Shown here: positions 2,257 through 35,177 of the stretch, piece after piece
Numbering within the stretch: the first letter of the stretch is position 1
Layout of the letters: each line of letters begins with the position of its first letter
Source of the DNA: Escherichia phage HEMP4
Sequence record: OR424387.1
Direction: 5' to 3' (one strand)
DNA: 39,891 bases
Program-made: the position numbers and the translations under genes
The notes under the pieces: generated by a model
Databases searched by the model: none
What the model was told of the DNA's origin: nothing
Seen by the model: the letters and a program-made list of their open reading frames with translations, nothing else

Positions 2257-2580
2257 GATGACCTCCTTTGAAGTTTTAGTTAGCAATCACCAGTTAGTAG
2301 CTGGTGATCGGGTGTCAACTAGAGCCTTCAAAGACGCTCCGGGCATATTCCCCTTTTGGGTATTGTATTACGCCTCTCCACCCGACCTTTGTACGGATGT
2401 GACTATGCCAAATTGCAGGCATAAAAAAGCCGCAAAGCTATCGGGTGCGGGTGACCGCTTTGAAGTTCTAGTGCGGTCAGTATGCGATAGCTCTGGCGGC
2501 ATTGTCAAATCATGCGCCACTGAGTCCAGCAATCTCTGCAATACCAATAGCGAGATAATCGCGATTCGTCAGGCGTGATT

Positions 2581-2829
2581 TTATTGCATATGTCTTAGCT
2601 CCACTGAAGTTGTGATTTTATATGGGTTGCCTTTTACCTCAATAACACGATGAGGATCATTTTTTAGCTCTTCCGTAATCTTCCGTAATCTTCTAACAGC
2701 TGAACTTCGGTGTTTATAACGGTAAGTTACAGTTTCTTTTCTCTGCAATACCTCATCATTGCGGTACTTAGTCAAAACCATGACGACTTCAAACCTGACG
2801 CCGTTGTGTGCAACCATAATCTGCTTCAT
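2581..2829 (-). CDS. Hypothetical protein (82 aa)
   Basis: ORF in operon context; internal ATG start overlaps stop of upstream methylase gene (translational coupling); contains 10-bp tandem repeat 2671..2690. Confidence 0.4.
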   Translation of the reverse strand: MKQIMVAHNGVRFEVVMVLTKYRNDEVLQRKETVTYRYKHRSSAVRRLRKITEELKNDPHRVIEVKGNPYKITTSVELRHMQ

Positions 2830-3476
2830 GCTGCACGCTCCCGCCCCTGGTTGTCTGTTGGTGACACCGGAGCATTGCTGAATGCATTTGTTAATCCGCC
2901 AATATCCAACGCGTATCCAGGGTGTAGTTGCACTGCCGGGTCTTCGCACTGATTACCCCAAACATCGAAGCCATGAGACGTCTGGCGGGCGAACAGTTCA
3001 ATGCGAGAAACATCGCCTAACAATTGCACAAGTTTTTCACGAACGACATCTGGTTTTCTTGAATGCTCAAGCCGCGGTGCGGTAAATGACTGAACGATCC
3101 CTGCATTAATGCGTGGAGGTAGTTTTCCCTTTACTGCAAACAGGCAATCTTCACTATTGGCGCGAGTCATGTGTCCCATACCCATAACCAGTTTATCTGG
3201 TTGTCGACTACCACATTTTATCCACGTGAAGCCCTTCATGGTCATCAGACGGAATCCCCAGGCTTCAACAACTTTTAGCGCTTCGAGTGGTTGTGTTGGC
3301 ACCCACCACATGGCCAACAGACAGTTTTCATCGGCCAAATCCCACACAGGAAGGCGGCAGATATCCATCACACTCATAACCGGATATTTAAAACTGGCAC
3401 CGCGATTACCATCTGCGGCTTTGTCCCGGTATACCCAGGGTGGATCTGCATAGATTAGTGTGTATTTCTTAGTCAT
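2826..3476 (-). CDS. DNA N6-adenine methyltransferase, MT-A70-like
   Basis: Protein begins MTKKYTLIYADPPW with DPPW catalytic motif typical of MT-A70/N6-adenine MTases; no adjacent restriction endonuclease gene recognised. Confidence 0.8.
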   Translation of the reverse strand: MTKKYTLIYADPPWVYRDKAADGNRGASFKYPVMSVMDICRLPVWDLADENCLLAMWWVPTQPLEALKVVEAWGFRLMTMKGFTWIKCGSRQPDKLVMGMGHMTRANSEDCLFAVKGKLPPRINAGIVQSFTAPRLEHSRKPDVVREKLVQLLGDVSRIELFARQTSHGFDVWGNQCEDPAVQLHPGYALDIGGLTNAFSNAPVSPTDNQGRERAA

Positions 3477-3768
3477 AAACCACCCCACAACATCCTATGC
3501 CGCTATAGTCGCCACGGCGAAGGCCGTTACCTTTTGTGATACATTGGTCCCTGCGAACCGCGATCCTTGCACGCTCAACATCACCAGAAGCAACATCCAT
3601 ACACTGAAGCCAAAGGTGGGCGGCAATGCGGAACTGCCCTTTTTTCTCTCTTTCAATCGCGCGTTTTTCGATCTCTATTGCCGCAGGAGTAACGGCAACA
3701 ACCTTTGAAGGGCTGCGCATTGAAACCTTGTTCATGTGATATTTTTCAAGTCGGCTTAACTTTCTCAC
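3469..3768 (-). CDS. Hypothetical protein (99 aa)
   Basis: ORF in leftward operon, overlaps methylase start by 8 nt; GTG start with GAGGG upstream. Confidence 0.4.
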   Translation of the reverse strand: MRKLSRLEKYHMNKVSMRSPSKVVAVTPAAIEIEKRAIEREKKGQFRIAAHLWLQCMDVASGDVERARIAVRRDQCITKGNGLRRGDYSGIGCCGVVYD

Positions 3769-3877
3769 TTAATCCAACCCTCTCTGAAAATTAATGCCAG
3801 CAGATAAAGCCATGCTGAAACAGAGGCCAGGAATAAGTACCATCCTGACCATTTGCTCCAGTGCCTTAGCAGCACAC

Positions 3878-4126
3878 TCATGCAGCGTTGCTCACAGGAC
3901 GATATACACGTTGCTGAACAGGAGGCTTTTTACCCTGGAACTCTGCCGGGCTTGCTGCCTGACGTTCATCAAGCCAACGCTCAACTTCATCACGGTTCCA
4001 TGCGCAGCGTTTATCGGTGATATACCAGCGTTTAGGAAATTCCCCTGCGCGCTCCATACGGTCGATAGTGCTCCATGACAGTGGCACCACCGCCAGGAGT
4101 TCCTTCTTACCTAATGCACCTTTCAT
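3878..4126 (-). CDS. AlpA-family DNA-binding protein / putative excisionase
   Basis: 82 aa; KKELLAVVPLSWSTIDRMERAGEFPKRWYIT...WNRDEVERWL matches AlpA/Xis-like HTH pattern; GAGG SD 6 nt upstream of ATG. Confidence 0.7.
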   Translation of the reverse strand: MKGALGKKELLAVVPLSWSTIDRMERAGEFPKRWYITDKRCAWNRDEVERWLDERQAASPAEFQGKKPPVQQRVYRPVSNAA

Positions 4127-4175
4127 AAATACCTCTCTTGGTTGCAGTGCGGCGCGCGTGGCGCCGCGGTGGTGG

Positions 4176-5057
4176 TTACATAGATGTTTCGTTTAATTCT
4201 TCCCGACGAACGCTGTAAACGTCGGTGGCTTTTGCCAGCAGTTCGTCATCATCTGAAAGTTTTTGTGCAATGTATTTGTAAGCCTTATCCAGTTCGGAGA
4301 CAGTGCTGTAATTCATCGCTGCGCTGGTAAAGGCCATCAGCATTTCTTCTGGCTCACGGCTATCCGCTTTACGCGTTTGCTCATCAGGCTTTTTCACTGA
4401 TTTAGCGTTGATCAGACTGTTCATTCCCGCAGCCGTAGTCATTTGCGGAGTAATGTCTCGCTCAACGCGCGGTGCCGTTTCCTGTAATTCGTCAGGGGTG
4501 TAAACACCGAGAAGTACATCAGGAGCGTGCAGGCGAGCCCATCGTTTCGTGCAAAGATAGGCAAGTTGCTGGCGCGGATCCTGTTCCCACAATGGAGAGT
4601 TACGCACTCCTGCTTGCGCCATACTGATGGTAAGCTCACGTGGTTCTGCTTCTCCTTTAAGAACTGCTGACACAGTTACCGTCAGATTCGGTGATTTATC
4701 TGTTTTGCCGTTAACATTCGACCAGTCACCGCTCCAGCGATAATTCAGGCGTGTCGCCAGCAGGCTGGAAGAGGATACGACCGCGTTTACCAACTGTGCT
4801 TCGTAGCCTAACGTTCCGTTTACCACATGCGTTTTCTGCGCCACGGCGAAAGGGTTCATTCCCCACTGTGCCGCCTGCATGGTCACCGCCAGGCAATCGG
4901 CAGGTTTGCCTTCAAGATGTTTCGGTACAGTCGCTTTGCTTTGTGACATCAACTCCGCGAAACGCACCAGTTGATTCATGCCCTCGGGGCTGAAGATTGC
5001 CGCAGCAGTGCCTACAGTTGCGCCTGGTTGTGATGTGATTGCGATATCATTGCTCAT
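4176..5057 (-). CDS. RecT/Red-beta family single-strand annealing protein
   Basis: 293 aa; segment PLWEQDPRQQLAYLCTKRWARLHAPDVLLGVYTPDE resembles conserved region of lambda Bet; directly downstream of and overlapping exonuclease gene. Confidence 0.6.
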   Translation of the reverse strand: MSNDIAITSQPGATVGTAAAIFSPEGMNQLVRFAELMSQSKATVPKHLEGKPADCLAVTMQAAQWGMNPFAVAQKTHVVNGTLGYEAQLVNAVVSSSSLLATRLNYRWSGDWSNVNGKTDKSPNLTVTVSAVLKGEAEPRELTISMAQAGVRNSPLWEQDPRQQLAYLCTKRWARLHAPDVLLGVYTPDELQETAPRVERDITPQMTTAAGMNSLINAKSVKKPDEQTRKADSREPEEMLMAFTSAAMNYSTVSELDKAYKYIAQKLSDDDELLAKATDVYSVRREELNETSM

Positions 5058-6479: not shown

Positions 6480-7064
6480 TTATTGTTTGCTTTTTTCGTT
6501 CTGGTTGATGACAAATTCAATGTAACTTTCGATCTTTGCTTTCTCGGTTTCGGGTAACAATGCGTAGCGCGAGCGGTCATAGTTGATAGTCGCAGGGTCG
6601 TGCGGGTGAATCAGTAATTCATAGCCGTGACGCCCGAATGCGGATGCAACATTCTCCAGGGTGGAAATGGAAACGCTGACCTCATTGTTTAACAGGCGGC
6701 TGATTGTCACCTGGGCGACGCCGGATGCGCGGTGAAGTTTTCCCTGTGTTGAAAGGTCGCGGCTTTCGCTCATCCAGCGTTCCAGGTTGTGAGCCGCCAG
6801 CTGACCAATGTCGCTTGGGCCGACAGGCTGAAAACCTTCCTGAGAAAGCGAGCGATCGATATCAAGCCAGTTACGGGGTTTATTGGCGGCAGCTTCAATT
6901 TTTCGCGCAACCTGGTCGCCGATAACCTTCTTACCAAGAGCCCAGCGGTTTACCAGATTTGCCTGAGTTCCAAGTTTTTCTGCCATCCGCGTCTGAACAC
7001 CATTGAATTCACGGTCGATCAAGTCGTTGAGATTTTGCCTGCGGACGTCCTGGATACTTTTCAT
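6480..7064 (-). CDS. Putative prophage repressor (HTH, no recognisable S24 peptidase domain)
   Basis: 194 aa, divergent from Cro-like gene with operator cluster between; N-terminal HTH-like segment TRMAEKLGTQANLVNRWALGKK; no Ala-Gly/Ser-Lys autocleavage module seen; no SD upstream of ATG. Confidence 0.55.
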   Translation of the reverse strand: MKSIQDVRRQNLNDLIDREFNGVQTRMAEKLGTQANLVNRWALGKKVIGDQVARKIEAAANKPRNWLDIDRSLSQEGFQPVGPSDIGQLAAHNLERWMSESRDLSTQGKLHRASGVAQVTISRLLNNEVSVSISTLENVASAFGRHGYELLIHPHDPATINYDRSRYALLPETEKAKIESYIEFVINQNEKSKQ

Positions 7065-7119: not shown

Positions 7120-7182
7120 TTACCCAACAGGTAAATGCACCCCATAGGTAACTATCCTTGATTTTTGTTACCTTATGGGTGA
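7120..7182. promoter_or_regulatory. Right operator cluster: three TTACC-N5-GGTAA-type sites (7120..7134 perfect, 7137..7151 8/10, 7168..7182 9/10)
   Basis: ttacccaacaggtaa, gcaccccataggtaa, ttaccttatgggtga within the 154-bp divergent intergenic region. Confidence 0.6.
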
Positions 7183-15820: not shown

Positions 15821-15897
15821 TGGCGCGGCATGCAGGATTCGAACCTGCGACCAACCGCTTAGAAGGCGGTTGCTCTGTCCAACTGAGCTAATGCCAC
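15821..15897 (-). tRNA. tRNA-Arg (anticodon UCU)
   Basis: Reverse complement folds as cloverleaf: acceptor GTGGCAT/ATGCCGC (one G-U), D-arm GCTC-AGTTGGACA-GAGC, anticodon stem ACCGC/GCGGT with loop CTTCTAA (anticodon TCT), T-arm GCAGG-TTCGAAT-CCTGC, discriminator G, CCA end; 77 nt. Confidence 0.85.
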
Positions 15898-33054: not shown

Positions 33055-33083
33055 GTCCACAAAAAAGCCCGCAGCGCGGGCTA
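33055..33083 (-). terminator. Rho-independent terminator for moron cassette
   Basis: On minus strand TAG-CCCGC-gct-GCGGGC followed by TTTTTT; stop codon embedded in stem. Confidence 0.7.
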
Positions 33084-33521
33084 TTCTTCTTCATCATTAA
33101 AAAGCGGATTGTTGTTTCCATCTGATGAAAGGAAAGGTATGTGTTCTCTTGAAAATCCAACAATGACAATTTCATTATCATTTTTTGCATAATGAATGCA
33201 TTCATTAGAATGCCTTCCGCTAGGGTTGAAATTTAAGTTAATGGTATAATTCTTAAATGTGTTTGGATACCATGTTGGCCCACAATGATAATGCCAATAA
33301 TTCTCTTGCTCATAATTGTCTGAGCCGGGAATTTTATCATGGTTATCATCAACCCATGAGGGCTTGTTTTTTCCAACAAGCGCCCTTCCATTGGCAACAT
33401 CCTCTAAAAAACTTTGTATGATTTTTATTTCATCATCAGTAAGGAAAGGTCCGTCTACAGCGAAAGGGGTGTTGCTTTCCCCATGTAGAAAACTATTAGA
33501 TATTCTAATGTTAAACTTCAA
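33081..33521 (-). CDS. Hypothetical moron protein B (146 aa), AT-rich, acidic C-terminus, probable TTG start
   Basis: ORF track 33081..33662; no in-frame ATG after upstream gene stop; TTG at 33521 sits 7 nt after AGGAG; Asn/Asp/Glu-rich with HYHCGP and C-terminal NDEEE. Confidence 0.5.
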   Translation of the reverse strand: MKFNIRISNSFLHGESNTPFAVDGPFLTDDEIKIIQSFLEDVANGRALVGKNKPSWVDDNHDKIPGSDNYEQENYWHYHCGPTWYPNTFKNYTINLNFNPSGRHSNECIHYAKNDNEIVIVGFSREHIPFLSSDGNNNPLFNDEEE

Positions 33522-33541
33522 GGAAAACTCCTGATGTGCTT

Positions 33542-33709
33542 CTATTTGGAGCGAAATGCCGCCTTGAAGTCGCTGAAAGATGTTCCTGTCTGGTAAACCA
33601 TATCCTTGTCGCGCTCTTTGCTTGCGCGGCCAAGCATAACTTTTCCAATGACATCCCAGCATTGCTTGGCTTGTTCATTGTGCTGAGTACGATTTTTCAA
33701 CGCTGTCAT
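33542..33709 (-). CDS. Hypothetical small moron protein A (55 aa)
   Basis: Hand-translated MTALKNRTQHNEQAKQCWDVIGKVMLGRASKERDKDMVYQTGTSFSDFKAAFRSK; GGAGG SD 6 nt upstream; operator-like site just upstream. Confidence 0.4.
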   Translation of the reverse strand: MTALKNRTQHNEQAKQCWDVIGKVMLGRASKERDKDMVYQTGTSFSDFKAAFRSK

Positions 33710-33721
33710 ATCGCGCCTCCT

Positions 33722-33736
33722 TTACCTTTAAGGTAA
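33722..33736. promoter_or_regulatory. Operator-like palindrome TTACC-N5-GGTAA upstream of moron cassette
   Basis: ttacctttaaggtaa, perfect, followed by TATTAC. Confidence 0.5.
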
Positions 33737-33779
33737 TATTACGCGAATCTACATCACATCGCCAATGATTATTTTAAAG

Positions 33780-34045
33780 GCACATCCCTGTGCCGCCGCC
33801 CGTCAGAAGAACCCAGCCTTGTCGTTGATGTACTCCGCGTGGGTCTGGATATCACGCAGGCATTTGCTCACACCGACGATGTAGCAGAACATGGTGGTCA
33901 GCTCCGCCGCCGCGCCCGATACGTCGTGCCCGTCTTCCTGTAACTGGTTCAGCAGATTCATCAGCAGTGAGTTCTCCGTCAGGCCGAGAACACCAGACGG
34001 CGAATGAATCAGGCTACGGTAGCCGGGCTTCAGTGGGGCACTGTA
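33780..34045. repeat. Internal direct repeat copy B (matches 1578..1842)
   Basis: Same as copy A. Confidence 0.85.
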
Positions 34046-34513
34046 GGTTTTGTTCTCTATCTTCATCGCCTGCATTACTGCTGACGCCGTGGCGTTGGCT
34101 ACCTGGTCGGCAACCATCTTTATGCGTTCTTCCTGCGGGAGCGAGTTTTTAATGTAACTTCCGGTGCGGCGGATCTGAGGAAGAACCTCACCTGTAACCC
34201 ATTTACGAAAGCGGTAGGGGATAGTGCCTGGTGTCACTGCGTCGCGGCAGCGGAGGATCAGTGTGTAGAGGCCTGACTCGGAGATGATGTTGATCTCTTT
34301 TACTCGGCTGTCAAAAATTGCACGATGTTCATGCCCTATGTTGAACATAGACCTTTCATCATCATCCAGTTTTTCAAGTGCTTGGGTGACGTTTTGGATG
34401 CGCAGCGCACTACAAACGTCTTGGGCTACAAACCATGGTTGGCCATCGATAATGATGGAACGGATAGGGTTAACAGATTCAAATTTGAAGATGGCAGTTT
34501 GAGCATTAGCCAT
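33803..34513 (-). CDS. Bro-N domain antirepressor-like protein with shared C-terminal domain
   Basis: ATG at 34513 (ORF track GTG 34528); N-terminal AIFKFESVNPIRSIIIDGQPWFVAQDVCSAL is classic Bro-N; C-terminal 80 aa identical to C-terminus of 1600..2256 gene. Confidence 0.75.
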   Translation of the reverse strand: MANAQTAIFKFESVNPIRSIIIDGQPWFVAQDVCSALRIQNVTQALEKLDDDERSMFNIGHEHRAIFDSRVKEINIISESGLYTLILRCRDAVTPGTIPYRFRKWVTGEVLPQIRRTGSYIKNSLPQEERIKMVADQVANATASAVMQAMKIENKTYSAPLKPGYRSLIHSPSGVLGLTENSLLMNLLNQLQEDGHDVSGAAAELTTMFCYIVGVSKCLRDIQTHAEYINDKAGFF

Positions 34514-34667
34514 GGTGGTTATCTCCACTTAGTGATTTTAATCACCACCGCAACGCCAATTACTGGTGGTGAACTGGACAAGGTTGGCGTACCGGCCTAA
34601 GTGGTACCGGCGTCCTTTCGGACCCCTGCCCAGCCCACCATAATTCGGATATAGCTGTGCTTAACGC

Positions 34668-34780
34668 ATAAAAAAACCACGTCTGGCGTGGTATGCGCCA
34701 CTTAGTAACTCGGGACGCCAATCCCGGCACTGGATTTTGCCAGTGCCTGATTACTATGGCACAAGAGGAGTGCGATGTAA
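34668..34780 (-). ncRNA. Candidate structured small RNA or leader upstream of Bro-N gene
   Basis: Minus-strand noncoding segment with stem-loops GGCACTGG-caaaat-CCAGTGCC and CGGGA-ttggcg-TCCCG, ending in terminator ACCACG-ccaga-CGTGGT plus U7; begins just downstream of operator-like site. Confidence 0.3.
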
Positions 34781-34782
34781 AT

Positions 34783-34797
34783 TTACCGCAAAGGTAA
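34783..34797. promoter_or_regulatory. Operator-like palindrome TTACC-N5-GGTAA
   Basis: ttaccgcaaaggtaa, perfect. Confidence 0.5.
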
Positions 34798-34828
34798 ATA
34801 TAAGCACTCCACTTGGTAATTGCAAACC

Positions 34829-35086
34829 TTATCTGGTTTGCTTTCGTAATTGTTCGGCACAATAGTCGAGATGTGTTTGCAGATCCCGCATAGACATCTG
34901 TGAGCTGGTGACGTAGTTAATCAGTGCAGTCAGTTCGGCAAGTGGGCCATCGACATTAAATCCATCCTTATCGAGATCCCGGAGTAATTTCATCAAGTGC
35001 GATCCCTCCACCAGTGACCTGACGCCTCCCGGCGTGTGAATCCTTTCGGTAAATCCGTCTTCCAGTGGATAGTGATACTGCTGCAT
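34829..35086 (-). CDS. Small antirepressor-like protein (85 aa), free-standing homolog of the shared C-terminal domain; LexA box upstream
   Basis: ATG 35086 with GGAGAA SD (ORF track TTG 35104); IHTPGGVRSLVEGSHLMKLL...DGPLAELTALINYVTSSQMSMRDLQTHLDY aligns with [20 protein letters not shown]...[30 protein letters not shown] of the two larger proteins. Confidence 0.6.
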   Translation of the reverse strand: MQQYHYPLEDGFTERIHTPGGVRSLVEGSHLMKLLRDLDKDGFNVDGPLAELTALINYVTSSQMSMRDLQTHLDYCAEQLRKQTR

Positions 35087-35105
35087 CTTATCTTCTCCAT
35101 GCAAT

Positions 35106-35162: not shown

Positions 35163-35177
35163 TCACCTGAAAGGTAA
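35163..35177. promoter_or_regulatory. Operator-like site (9/10 match, TCACC-N5-GGTAA)
   Basis: tcacctgaaaggtaa between LexA box and tailspike start. Confidence 0.4.

What the first reader, a model, noticed from the sequence alone, without database searches (positions are those of the whole stretch)
33055..33736. AT-rich two-gene moron cassette with its own operator-like site and terminator
A 55-aa protein followed by a 146-aa Asn/Asp/Glu-rich protein with an acidic tail, apparently initiating at TTG (no in-frame ATG), on the strand opposite the structural operon. It is markedly AT-rich compared with flanking DNA, is preceded by a perfect TTACC-N5-GGTAA site and ends in a strong terminator. 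I recognise neither protein. The organisation is that of an independently expressed accessory module, for example a toxin-antitoxin, superinfection-exclusion or anti-defense pair; an acidic tail is compatible with a DNA-mimic or protein-binding role.
Basis: partly seen in the sequence, partly recalled or inferred. Interest (0 to 1): 0.7.

Follow-up and report, generated by a model that had tools for sequence, protein, structure and literature searches.

The report
Repressor-gated toxin–antitoxin-like pair in prophage
The two small genes are real and look like a previously unnamed toxin–antitoxin-type pair, with a RelE/YoeB-fold putative RNase and a small helical partner, sitting in a swappable cargo slot of an epsilon15/phiV10-like E. 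coli prophage; the "operator" in front of it is one copy of the phage's genome-wide repressor site rather than a site of its own.

Summary

The 55-aa basic helical partner sits directly upstream in every context inspected:
- other prophages
- an Erwinia chromosome, between accA and an IF-2B-family gene
- 2.7–3.3-kb cryptic plasmids, where the pair is essentially the only cargo

This fits an autonomous toxin–antitoxin-like module. Toxicity and neutralisation are untested.

The palindrome is not specific to the cassette. It occurs 14 times in the window (0.6 expected) and is annotated as the repressor-binding site in epsilon15. At least five other two-gene cargos occupy the same slot in related prophages, and the five inspected keep the operator. 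The cassette is therefore probably repressed in lysogens and switched on with the early genes.

A published "orf10" knockout in phage phiv142-3 actually deleted the core of this gene.

The DNA-mimic idea is not supported. Interest is moderate.

The parts
33736..33765 (-). Sigma-70-like promoter candidate: -35 TTGGCG (33765-33760), 18-nt spacer, -10 TAATAT (33741-33736)
   Evidence: Read directly from the sequence. It matches 8 of 12 consensus positions, below the 9/12 threshold of the scan, so it is inferred rather than detected. A -10-like hexamer fused to TACC is also seen at other operator copies: 34783, 13009, 7120 and 35163.
33721..33737 (.). 17-bp operator ATTACCTTAAAGGTAAA (core TTACC-N5-GGTAA at 33722-33736). 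It is one copy of the genome-wide Uetakevirus repressor operator and overlaps the end of the -10 hexamer and the likely transcription start.
   Evidence: The window has 14 sites with at most one mismatch, against 0.63 expected. phiV10 also has 14. epsilon15 RefSeq annotates ATTACC-N5-GGTAAT as 'protein_bind: repressor, lysogeny'.
33542..33709 (-). Gene for the 55-aa basic (pI 9.8) helical protein, the presumed neutralising partner (antitoxin-like). Shine-Dalgarno AGGAGG at 33721-33716.
   Evidence: ORF and translation. phrog_8607, function unknown. No Pfam, NCBIfam or PADLOC hit. The AF2 model is a long helix (2-41) plus a short helix (45-53), pLDDT 71.5. A homologous partner lies directly upstream of every inspected homologue of the large gene.
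33081..33521 (-). Gene for the 146-aa protein, TTG start, Shine-Dalgarno AGGAG at 33532-33528. Predicted RelE/YoeB-fold putative endoribonuclease (toxin-like), with invariant His77, His79 and His127 and a conserved GKNKPSW motif.
33060..33082 (-). Intrinsic terminator: stem-loop AGCCCGCGCTGCGGGCT (33082-33066) followed by TTTTTT. The TAG stop codon of the 146-aa gene runs into the stem.
   Evidence: Terminator scan. The same hairpin closes the alternative cargos of the slot in three other phages.
6480..7064 (-). Gene for the 194-aa helix-turn-helix prophage repressor, the inferred trans-acting regulator of the cassette promoter.
   Evidence: Pfam HTH_3. Operator copies at 7120 and 7168 lie between it and the divergent cro-like gene. 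The homologous gene is annotated as the repressor in phiV10 and epsilon15. Over-expression of the repressor of the related phage ZX5 shuts off lytic genes (PMC9782041); that paper states the phiV10 and phiv142-3 repressors have the same sequence, but I did not compare the window's gene with them.

Best explanation
The two genes form an autonomous, horizontally mobile toxin-antitoxin-like pair.

**The proteins**
- The 146-aa protein is a divergent, so far unnamed member of the RelE/ParE superfamily and is closest to YoeB. It is most likely an endoribonuclease.
- Its active site is probably built from His127 (aligned with the catalytic His83 of YoeB), His77 and His79 on the third strand, and the Lys51/Lys53 loop.
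- The 55-aa basic helical protein encoded just upstream is its presumed neutralising partner. It has no recognisable DNA-binding domain.
- Translation of the toxin-like gene from TTG, against ATG for the partner, would keep the partner in excess.

**Control in this phage**
- The pair is cargo in a polymorphic slot of the immunity-I-like region of a Uetakevirus prophage, between the Bro-N antirepressor gene and a small membrane-protein gene.
- It is transcribed leftward from a weak sigma-70-type promoter. The -10 hexamer and start site are covered by one copy of the phage's own repressor operator, and transcription ends at an intrinsic terminator.
- I therefore expect it to be held low by the prophage repressor and switched on together with the early genes when repression is lifted, on induction or fresh infection.

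**Likely role**
- A conflict or addiction function seems most likely: killing or arresting cells, excluding competitors, or stabilising the element.

**Shown and inferred**
- Shown: the genes, their conservation as a pair, the predicted fold, the identity and distribution of the operator motif, and the polymorphism of the slot.
- Inferred: RNase activity, toxicity, neutralisation by the partner, repression by the repressor and the biological role.
For: **Fold and conserved residues**
- The AF2 model has pLDDT 92.3 and pTM 0.87.
- Foldseek ranks the same families first.
- hhalign of the 94-sequence family against a four-sequence YoeB profile gives P = 9.4e-4. The alignment is collinear over YoeB residues 1-81 and pairs GKNKPSW with GKGKPEPL.
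- His77, His79 and His127 are invariant in 94 sequences that share only 21-54% identity with the window protein. G50, N52, K53, S55, Y78, Y111 and F130 are at least 90% conserved.

**Behaviour as a pair**
- A homologous small gene lies 11-31 nt upstream in the Pectobacterium, Serratia, Proteus and Erwinia loci and on the small plasmids. Where the upstream gene is called longer (Klebsiella, where it overlaps the large gene; Pasteurellaceae), its C-terminal part carries the similarity, which is weakest in the Pasteurellaceae locus.
- In Erwinia persicina the pair stands alone between accA and an IF-2B-family gene.
- There are 37 plasmid hits, mostly 2.7-4.6 kb. In the four inspected, the pair is the only cargo besides a Rep-like HTH protein, with or without MobA.
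- The large gene starts with TTG or GTG in several lineages.

**Slot and control**
- In phage TL-2011b the same slot holds a pair annotated as a YafO-family toxin.
- About 500 of 5426 complete E. coli genomes carry the slot flanks, and 76 carry this cassette.
- All five other filled versions inspected keep a TTACC-N5-GGTAA site, and the three whose right-hand junction could be located share the terminator.
- The operator motif occurs 14 times against 0.6 expected, including in the repressor/cro intergenic region. It is annotated as the repressor site in epsilon15.
- In phiv142-3 lysogens, 'orf10' lies inside this gene. It rose 2^4.12-fold in serum, alongside the early genes orf41 (2^4.56) and orf40 (2^3.68).
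- The mutant deleted for codons 44-96 grows normally in LB, as expected when a toxin gene is lost.
Against: - Nobody has tested toxicity, RNase activity or binding between the two proteins.
- Sequence-level support for the fold is weak:
  - no Pfam hit in 0 of 94 members;
  - no PDB sequence hit;
  - Foldseek E is about 0.3;
  - hhalign probability is only 22%.
- The YoeB catalytic residues Glu46 and Arg65 are not conserved; the aligned positions are Ser55 and Cys108.
- Charge polarity is the reverse of classical type II systems. The large protein is acidic here (pI 4.9) and the partner is basic (pI 8.9-9.8 in all five examples).
- The partner shows no DNA-binding fold and its model is only moderately confident. 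No conserved autoregulatory operator travels with the pair.
- A module silenced by the prophage repressor fits poorly with addiction or abortive infection, both of which need expression in the lysogen.
- Li et al. report that a plasmid carrying the mis-annotated 'orf10' complemented their mutant, and that the gene raises capsule transcripts. A toxin model does not predict either result.
- ParE-type toxins share the fold but poison gyrase, so the fold alone does not prove RNase activity.
Confidence: 0.55

Rival explanations
1. It is a lytic-cycle or host-takeover factor rather than a toxin-antitoxin system. On this reading the phage uses a RelE-fold RNase early after derepression or infection to remodel host or competitor RNA or to counter a defence system. 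The small basic protein acts as a cofactor, chaperone or timer.
For: - The promoter is overlapped by the repressor operator, as at the early promoters.
- The gene is co-induced with early replication genes in a lysogen.
- The other cargos of the slot are also held under the operator.
- The slot lies in the immunity-I-like region, next to an antirepressor controlled by C4/isrK-type RNAs.
Against: - The same pair stands alone in an Erwinia chromosome and is the main cargo of tiny plasmids that have no lytic cycle.
- The sequenced-phage collection holds only two hits.
- The cassette is absent from phiV10 and epsilon15, so it is dispensable for growth.
Confidence: 0.2
2. It is a lysogenic-conversion or regulatory factor, as proposed for phiv142-3 'orf10'. 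On this reading a non-toxic protein, directly or indirectly, raises K1 capsule gene expression and serum resistance of the host. The RelE-like fold would then be a degenerate scaffold.
For: - Li et al. 2020 (PMC7724020) deleted the core of this gene and saw lower serum survival.
- They also saw capsule (kps) transcripts about two-fold lower and poorer colonisation of chickens.
Against: - The authors worked with an out-of-frame 52-aa annotation, so what was complemented is unclear.
- The effects are modest and could be indirect consequences of an RNase or of altered prophage induction.
- Three invariant histidines and conserved lysines in a nuclease fold argue for catalysis.
- The occurrence on cryptic plasmids of Aeromonas, Vibrio and Edwardsiella does not fit a K1-capsule role.
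Confidence: 0.12
3. It is a ParE-like, non-nucleolytic toxin. The fold is right, but the target would be DNA gyrase or another protein rather than RNA.
Against: - The profile alignment is to YoeB.
- Invariant His residues at positions corresponding to nuclease active sites are not a ParE feature (established knowledge of ParE, not tested here).
Confidence: 0.08
4. It is an anti-defence or DNA-mimic protein that works through its acidic tail.
For: - The protein is acidic overall (pI 4.9) and ends in DEEE.
- Its position among phage accessory genes is compatible with an anti-defence role.
Against: - The tail has only four or five acidic residues and the lowest model confidence (block mean 54; residues 144-146 below 50).
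- It varies in length and charge among homologues.
- Family pI ranges from 4.8 to 10.7.
- The conserved features are a nuclease-type fold and histidines, not a surface of regularly spaced carboxylates.
Confidence: 0.03

Closest known systems
YoeB-YefM (Txe/YoeB family, RelE/ParE superfamily) type II toxin-antitoxin systems
   Same: - Antitoxin-then-toxin gene order with a short gap.
- Collinear profile alignment that pairs GKNKPSW with GKGKPEPL and places a C-terminal His (His127) opposite the catalytic His83 of YoeB.
   Different: - The protein is about 60 residues longer, with an insertion between strands 3 and 4 and a conserved C-terminal HxPF...NPLF tail.
- YoeB Glu46 and Arg65 are replaced, and a His-x-His pair on strand 3 is the family hallmark instead.
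- It does not reach any Pfam threshold.
- The partner is a 55-aa basic helical protein with no Phd/YefM match.
YafO-YafN, and the YafO-family pair carried in the same slot by phage TL-2011b
   Same: - It occupies the identical slot, behind the same operator motif and in front of the same terminator.
- Architecture is similar: a 59-aa basic partner followed by a 181-aa protein with an H-x-H motif (RHTH against WHYH) and a TSDxxLVY-like strand.
   Different: - None of 94 family members hits Pfam YafO_toxin.
- Profile-profile comparison is not significant, with E = 0.017 and probability 2.6%.
- The small partners are unrelated by eye.
PaaR2-PaaA2-ParE2 of E. coli O157 prophages (three-component systems)
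   Same: - It is a prophage-borne RelE/ParE-fold toxin whose small helical antitoxin lacks a DNA-binding domain, with transcription controlled by a separate repressor. The description of PaaA2/PaaR2 comes from my own knowledge.
   Different: - Here the separate regulator would be the prophage's own main repressor acting at a genome-wide operator, not a dedicated third gene.
- The toxin looks nucleolytic rather than ParE-like.
Dispersed-operator immunity systems such as the P1 C1 repressor, and the P1 immI region (C4 RNA - icd - ant)
   Same: - One repressor has many operators scattered over the genome, 14 here.
- The cassette lies just downstream of an antirepressor gene preceded by Rfam C4 antisense RNA and isrK matches.
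   Different: - The operator is a symmetric 17-bp ATTACC-N5-GGTAAT site and the repressor has two HTH domains.
- The comparison with P1 rests on my own knowledge and was not tested.

Membership tests
Type II toxin-antitoxin system (generic) | Two small adjacent co-oriented genes forming one transcription unit | tested here: met
   The gap between the genes is 20 nt. There is one promoter-like region and one terminator. The same arrangement, with gaps of 11-31 nt, is seen in the Pectobacterium, Serratia, Proteus and Erwinia loci and on the plasmids; in Klebsiella the upstream gene call overlaps the large gene, and in the Pasteurellaceae locus the gap is 68 nt.
Type II toxin-antitoxin system (generic) | The pair moves as an autonomous unit between unrelated replicons | tested here: met
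   It is found in Uetakevirus and lambdoid prophages, in the Erwinia chromosome between accA and an IF-2B-family gene, and on 2.7-4.6-kb plasmids of about eight genera.
Type II toxin-antitoxin system (generic) | The toxin arrests growth when expressed alone | not testable with these tools
   This needs an expression experiment. The published deletion of codons 44-96 is viable, which is compatible but not informative.
Type II toxin-antitoxin system (generic) | The antitoxin binds and neutralises the toxin | not testable with these tools
   No complex prediction was available. Only the constant adjacency of the genes supports it.
Type II toxin-antitoxin system (generic) | The antitoxin carries a DNA-binding domain and autoregulates the operon | tested here: not met
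   The partner has no Pfam or NCBIfam hit. Its model is two helices without an RHH, HTH or AbrB fold. No common palindrome travels with the pair, and the upstream sites differ with context.
RelE/ParE toxin superfamily | Compact alpha/beta fold with an antiparallel sheet packed against N-terminal helices | tested here: met
RelE/ParE toxin superfamily | Detectable sequence or profile relationship to a member family | tested here: inconclusive
   There is no Pfam hit and no PDB profile hit. hhalign against a YoeB mini-profile gives P = 9.4e-4 and probability 22%.
YoeB/Txe family | Catalytic Glu46, Arg65, His83 and Tyr84 (E. coli numbering; own knowledge) | tested here: not met
   In the alignment, extended by eye, only His83 has a counterpart (His127). 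Glu46 aligns with Ser55 and Arg65 with Cys108.
YoeB/Txe family | Partner of the Phd/YefM antitoxin family | tested here: not met
   The 55-aa protein has no Pfam hit at E <= 1.
YafO family (Pfam PF13957) | Match to the YafO_toxin model | tested here: not met
   None of 94 members matches at E <= 0.1. The TL-2011b protein does match, at 26.3 bits.
YafO family (Pfam PF13957) | Profile-profile relationship to YafO-family proteins | tested here: inconclusive
   hhalign of A2 against A3 gives E = 0.017 and probability 2.6%. The aligned segment pairs WHYH with RHTH and TSxxVIHY with TSDSFLVY.
Uetakevirus repressor operator | 17-bp ATTACC-N5-GGTAAT site next to a promoter, repeated across the genome | tested here: met
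   33721-33737 is ATTACCTTAAAGGTAAA: the core is perfect and 16 of 17 positions fit. The window has 14 copies against 0.63 expected. The same motif is annotated as the repressor site in epsilon15. Actual binding was not tested.
HicAB (considered because the sizes, 55 + 146 aa, match) | HicA dsRBD-like toxin upstream of an RNase-H-like HicB antitoxin | tested here: not met
Known anti-phage defence systems (PADLOC-DB v2) | Match to a model of a known or candidate defence protein | tested here: not met
   Neither protein has a hit at E <= 1.

The most novel reading that the evidence does not exclude
The slot between the antirepressor gene and the small membrane-protein gene of Uetakevirus prophages may be a repressor-gated cargo bay. 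It holds interchangeable two-gene conflict modules: this RelE/YoeB-fold pair, a YafO-family pair, DUF2335 and DUF4760 pairs, and two unknown pairs. Each inspected version is wired to the phage's own repressor operator.

On this reading the modules stay silent in the stable lysogen and are released only when immunity collapses or on entry into a new cell. The RelE-fold nuclease would then act as an induction-coupled weapon or shut-off factor. That would be a use of toxin-antitoxin hardware distinct from addiction or abortive infection. Its basic partner, which lacks a DNA-binding domain, would act as a timer rather than an autoregulator.
Probability: 0.2. Interest if true: 0.65.

Novelty: new variant of a known kind. 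Interest (0 to 1): 0.45.

Why it matters
- **A missing family.** It points to a RelE/YoeB-fold toxin-like family of at least 118 clusters at 50% identity. The family is absent from Pfam, NCBIfam and PADLOC and is labelled "hypothetical" or "unknown function" everywhere. It occurs in about 1.5% of complete E. coli genomes and on many cryptic plasmids.
- **A natural experiment.** The phage's main repressor, rather than the antitoxin, appears to control a toxin-antitoxin-like module. Several unrelated cargos have converged on the same control, so the slot is a ready-made system for asking what temperate phages gain by gating conflict genes on immunity.
- **A corrected record.** A published virulence phenotype (serum resistance and capsule expression of an avian pathogenic E. 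coli) was assigned to a mis-called out-of-frame ORF. The deletion actually removed the conserved core of this putative nuclease.

Tried and rejected
**Family and sequence searches**
- Pfam, NCBIfam and PADLOC scans of both proteins gave nothing. Pfam on 94 family members also gave nothing.
- A profile search of PDB sequences returned only chance-level hits.
- hhalign against a single YafO-family sequence found nothing. Against the YafO-family alignment it was suggestive in the motifs it aligned but not significant.
- Searches for the protein accessions and PHROG numbers in papers returned only the phiv142-3 paper.

**Structure searches**
- Foldseek against PDB and BFVD gave no significant hit, although RelE, YafQ and YoeB came first in PDB.
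- The AFDB50 library was unavailable.
The shallow alignment gave only a moderate model.
- No complex prediction was possible.

**Literature**
- The epsilon15 genome paper is not held, so the operator assignment rests on the RefSeq feature table.

**Ideas rejected**
- *HicAB.* The sizes match, but the folds and families do not.
- *DNA mimic.* See the last rival explanation.
- *An autoregulatory operator carried by the pair.* The upstream palindromes differ with context. On the small plasmids the 46-50-bp palindrome lies next to the Rep-like gene.
- *The 193-aa ORF starting at ATG 33662.* Its extension is not conserved and PGAP does not call it.
Full report
**1. Observation**

The window is a near-complete genome of an epsilon15/phiV10-like podophage (genus Uetakevirus).
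- Its best phage match is Escherichia phage phiv142-3, at 98% identity over the region.
- A 100%-identical prophage segment lies in E. coli EC332.

- The 55-aa ORF runs 33709..33542, starts at ATG and has AGGAGG six bases upstream.
- The 146-aa ORF runs 33521..33081, starts at TTG and has AGGAG six bases upstream.
- PGAP calls exactly these two genes, both as "hypothetical protein".
- The frame of the large gene is open back to an ATG at 33662. That extension overlaps the small gene and has no counterpart in homologues.
- Cassette GC is 0.386, and 0.351 for the large gene, against 0.488 for the window. Only 2% of equally long windows are as low.
- The palindrome TTACCTTAAAGGTAA (33722-33736) is perfect.
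- The terminator is a 7-bp stem with 6 G-C pairs followed by T6.

**2. The large protein**

It matches nothing in Pfam, NCBIfam or PADLOC. In PHROGs it falls in phrog_5954, function unknown.

Its family is modest in size:
- A word-indexed search found 34 clusters in Enterobacterales and Pasteurellaceae, all unnamed.
- A full HMM search found 118 representatives at 50% identity.
- None of 94 full-length members hits any Pfam family.
- In these 94 sequences, which share 21-54% identity with the query, His77, His79 and His127 are invariant. G50, N52, K53, S55, Y78, Y111 and F130 are at least 90% conserved.

The predicted structure points to one superfamily:
- The AlphaFold2 model is confident, with pLDDT 92.3 and pTM 0.87.
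- Foldseek puts the same families first but without significance.

At sequence level the support is weaker:
- I read four YoeB sequences off PDB alignments and built a small profile from them. hhalign aligned the family to it collinearly over YoeB 1-81, with P = 9.4e-4 and probability 22%.
- The alignment pairs GKNKPSW with GKGKPEPL, YWHYH with FWSRR, IHY with LVY and IVIVGFS with LLIAACR.
- Extending it by eye puts the invariant His127 opposite the catalytic His83 of YoeB. YoeB Glu46 and Arg65 are not conserved.

I conclude that the protein is a divergent, unnamed member of the RelE/ParE superfamily. It is nearest to YoeB and has its own His-x-His...His signature. Nuclease activity is an inference.

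**3. The small protein, and the two genes as a pair**

- The 55-aa protein (phrog_8607, pI 9.8) has 12 close clusters.
- It is predicted to form one long helix and one short helix at moderate confidence, with no DNA-binding fold.

A recognisable homologue sits immediately upstream of the large gene in nearly every context I inspected; in the Pasteurellaceae locus only the C-terminal end of a longer upstream gene aligns, and only weakly:
- Pectobacterium and Serratia prophages, again downstream of a Bro-N gene.
- The nin region of Klebsiella lambdoid prophages, as the C-terminal part of a longer gene call.
- Proteus contigs.
- A Pasteurellaceae element.
- The Erwinia persicina chromosome, where the pair stands alone between accA and an IF-2B-family gene.

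A translated search of plasmids added a further context:
- It found 37 records, mostly 2.7-4.6 kb, from Escherichia, Salmonella, Citrobacter, Klebsiella, Edwardsiella, Providencia, Aeromonas and Vibrio.
- In the four I opened, the pair (62 aa plus 152-155 aa, gap 11-14 nt) is the only cargo besides a Rep-like HTH protein, with or without MobA.
- The large gene starts with TTG or GTG in several lineages, which would keep its product below the level of the partner.

This distribution is what one expects of an autonomous addiction or toxin-antitoxin-type module.

Two atypical points remain:
- The partner is always basic, and in this phage the large protein is acidic. Family-wide, however, the pI of the large protein ranges from 4.8 to 10.7.
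- No common operator travels with the pair.

**4. The "operator"**

- TTACC-N5-GGTAA occurs 14 times in the window with at most one mismatch, nine of them perfect, against 0.63 expected.
- By comparison with the ORF list, the copies fall between or at the very edges of the ORFs I take to be genes.
- They include two between the HTH repressor gene (6480-7064) and the divergent cro-like gene, two downstream of the repressor gene, and copies ahead of the replication, terminase, portal and integrase genes.
- Further copies lie ahead of the Bro-N antirepressor gene (34783) and the 91-aa gene (35163).
- phiV10 has 14 copies and epsilon15 has 15.
- The epsilon15 RefSeq record annotates ATTACC-N5-GGTAAT as "protein_bind: repressor, lysogeny".
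- At several copies, including this one, a -10-like hexamer is fused to the site. Here the arrangement is TTGGCG, 18 nt, TAATAT, with the last T of the hexamer being the first T of TTACC.

The site is therefore real, but it is the phage's general repressor operator. The cassette is plugged into the phage's immunity circuit. Repressor binding was not tested here. Over-expression of the repressor of the related phage ZX5 shuts off lytic genes; that paper states the phiV10 and phiv142-3 repressors have the same sequence (PMC9782041), but I did not compare the window's repressor gene with them.

**5. The slot**

The flanks are conserved in about 500 of 5426 complete E. coli genomes, and 76 of them carry this cassette. 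The left flank is the 3' end of the Bro-N gene. The right flank is the terminator and the small membrane-protein gene.

Other fillings of the slot are:
- a YafO-family toxin pair (TL-2011b and many genomes)
- a DUF2335 pair (EC.W1-9, ZX5)
- a DUF4760 pair
- a 72 + 125-aa pair
- a 124 + 63-aa pair
- nothing at all (phiV10)

All five filled versions I inspected in sequence keep a TTACC-N5-GGTAA site, with three different promoter sequences. The three whose right-hand junction could be located share the same terminator.

**6. Published data**

Li et al. 2020 (PMC7724020) studied "orf10" of phiv142-3.
- That ORF (QGF19616.1, 52 aa) is out of frame and lies inside the 146-aa gene.
- Their recombineering arms map to 33392-33451 and 33173-33232, so the deletion removed 33233-33391. 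That is codons 44-96, including GKNKPSW and WHYHCG.
- They report a 2^4.12-fold rise of the transcript in chicken serum. Only orf41 (2^4.56) rose more, and orf40 (2^3.68) came next. Both are early genes, and the antirepressor rose 2^1.31-fold.
- This pattern fits shared derepression better than constitutive lysogenic expression.
- The mutant grew normally in LB, was less serum-resistant and had about two-fold lower capsule (kps) transcripts. These effects need re-examination with the correct reading frame.

**7. Mechanism and rivals**

My best explanation (confidence 0.55) is a toxin-antitoxin-like pair in which a RelE/YoeB-fold putative endoribonuclease is neutralised by a small helical partner. 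It is carried as exchangeable cargo and transcribed from a repressor-gated promoter.

The rivals are:
- a lytic-cycle or host-takeover RNase with a cofactor (0.2)
- a non-toxic conversion or regulatory factor, as published (0.12)
- a ParE-like non-nucleolytic toxin (0.08)
- an acidic DNA mimic (0.03)

The stand-alone chromosomal and tiny-plasmid copies weigh against a purely lytic role. The operator and the co-induction weigh against a classical lysogen-expressed moron.

**8. Novelty and verdict**

RelE/ParE-fold toxin-antitoxin systems and prophage cargo hotspots are both well known. Three things are new here:
- an uncatalogued sequence family with its own catalytic signature and an unrelated partner that lacks a DNA-binding domain
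- its apparent control in trans by the prophage repressor, shared by all the alternative cargos of the slot that I inspected
- the re-assignment of a published phenotype

I rate it a new variant of a known kind, with interest 0.45.

Noticed in passing
window 261, 6346, 6408, 7120, 7168, 7505, 9407, 9469, 13009, 13027, 16220, 33722, 34783, 35163 (each 15 bp): There are fourteen copies of TTACC-N5-GGTAA (nine perfect) against 0.63 expected. By comparison with the ORF list they fall between, or at the edges of, the ORFs taken to be genes, in front of most transcription units, including late ones (terminase, portal). This points to one repressor with dispersed operators, reminiscent of P1. phiV10 has 14 copies and epsilon15 has 15, and the epsilon15 RefSeq record annotates seven of its copies as repressor-binding sites.
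   Followed up: yes
window 34562-34746 (-): Rfam matches above gathering score to C4 antisense RNA (34562-34645) and isrK Hfq-binding RNA (34670-34746). They lie between the operator and promoter at 34783-34826 and the start of the Bro-N antirepressor gene. The layout resembles the P1 immI region, where an RNA controls the antirepressor.
   Followed up: partly
window 34829-35104 (-) versus 33803-34528 (-): The 91-aa protein encoded upstream of the antirepressor gene is a stand-alone paralogue of the C-terminal domain of the Bro-N antirepressor (43% identity over 74 aa, E = 3e-16). It has its own operator copy at 35163.
   Followed up: partly
window 33233-33391 (-); L002 2934-3092 (phiv142-3 Orf10): The GenBank record of phiv142-3 annotates an out-of-frame 52-aa 'Orf10' inside the 146-aa gene. 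The published knockout of orf10 therefore removed codons 44-96 of the RelE-fold gene.
   Followed up: yes
slot between window 33060 and 33802; loci L001, L011-L014; E. coli hits H43-H88: This is a polymorphic cargo slot present in about 9% of complete E. coli genomes. Besides this cassette it holds at least five other two-gene cargos (YafO-family, DUF2335, DUF4760, 72+125 aa, 124+63 aa), or is empty in phiV10. Most of these cargos have no known function.
   Followed up: partly
window 33066-33082 versus L001 and L014: The terminator hairpin that closes the slot has the same stem in all the cargos compared. Its 3-nt loop is flipped (GCT in the window and EC.W1-9; AGC in TL-2011b and Phi05_2388B). 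In the window, TL-2011b and EC.W1-9 the cargo's stop codon abuts or runs into the stem, which suggests that cargo exchange joins within the hairpin.
   Followed up: no
L019-L021 (Erwinia persicina) 2793-3441: The pair (58 + 146 aa) is inserted alone between accA and an IF-2B-family gene in three assemblies, with no phage or plasmid genes nearby.
   Followed up: partly
L025 1899-1944; L026 1146-1195; L027 291-340 (small plasmids): A perfect 46-50-bp palindrome (AATCATAATAACAATACCTATAT / ATATAGGTATTGTTATTATGATT and variants) lies upstream of the pair on the 2.7-3-kb plasmids; in the two that carry an annotated Rep-like HTH gene (L025, L026) it lies between that gene and the pair. It could be a replication origin or a Rep operator.
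   Followed up: no
window 15821-15897 (-) and 2298-2387 (-): A tRNA-Arg(tct) gene lies on the minus strand between the packaging and portal genes. There is also an Rfam sRNA-Xcc1 match in the early-left region.
   Followed up: no
L004-L006 (Klebsiella lambdoid prophages) 3446-4486: In the nin region the large-gene homologue (161 aa) is preceded by two overlapping genes of 95 and 102 aa. Only the C-terminal ~45 residues of the second resemble the 55-aa partner, so this may be a longer or fused partner, or a three-gene version.
   Followed up: partly
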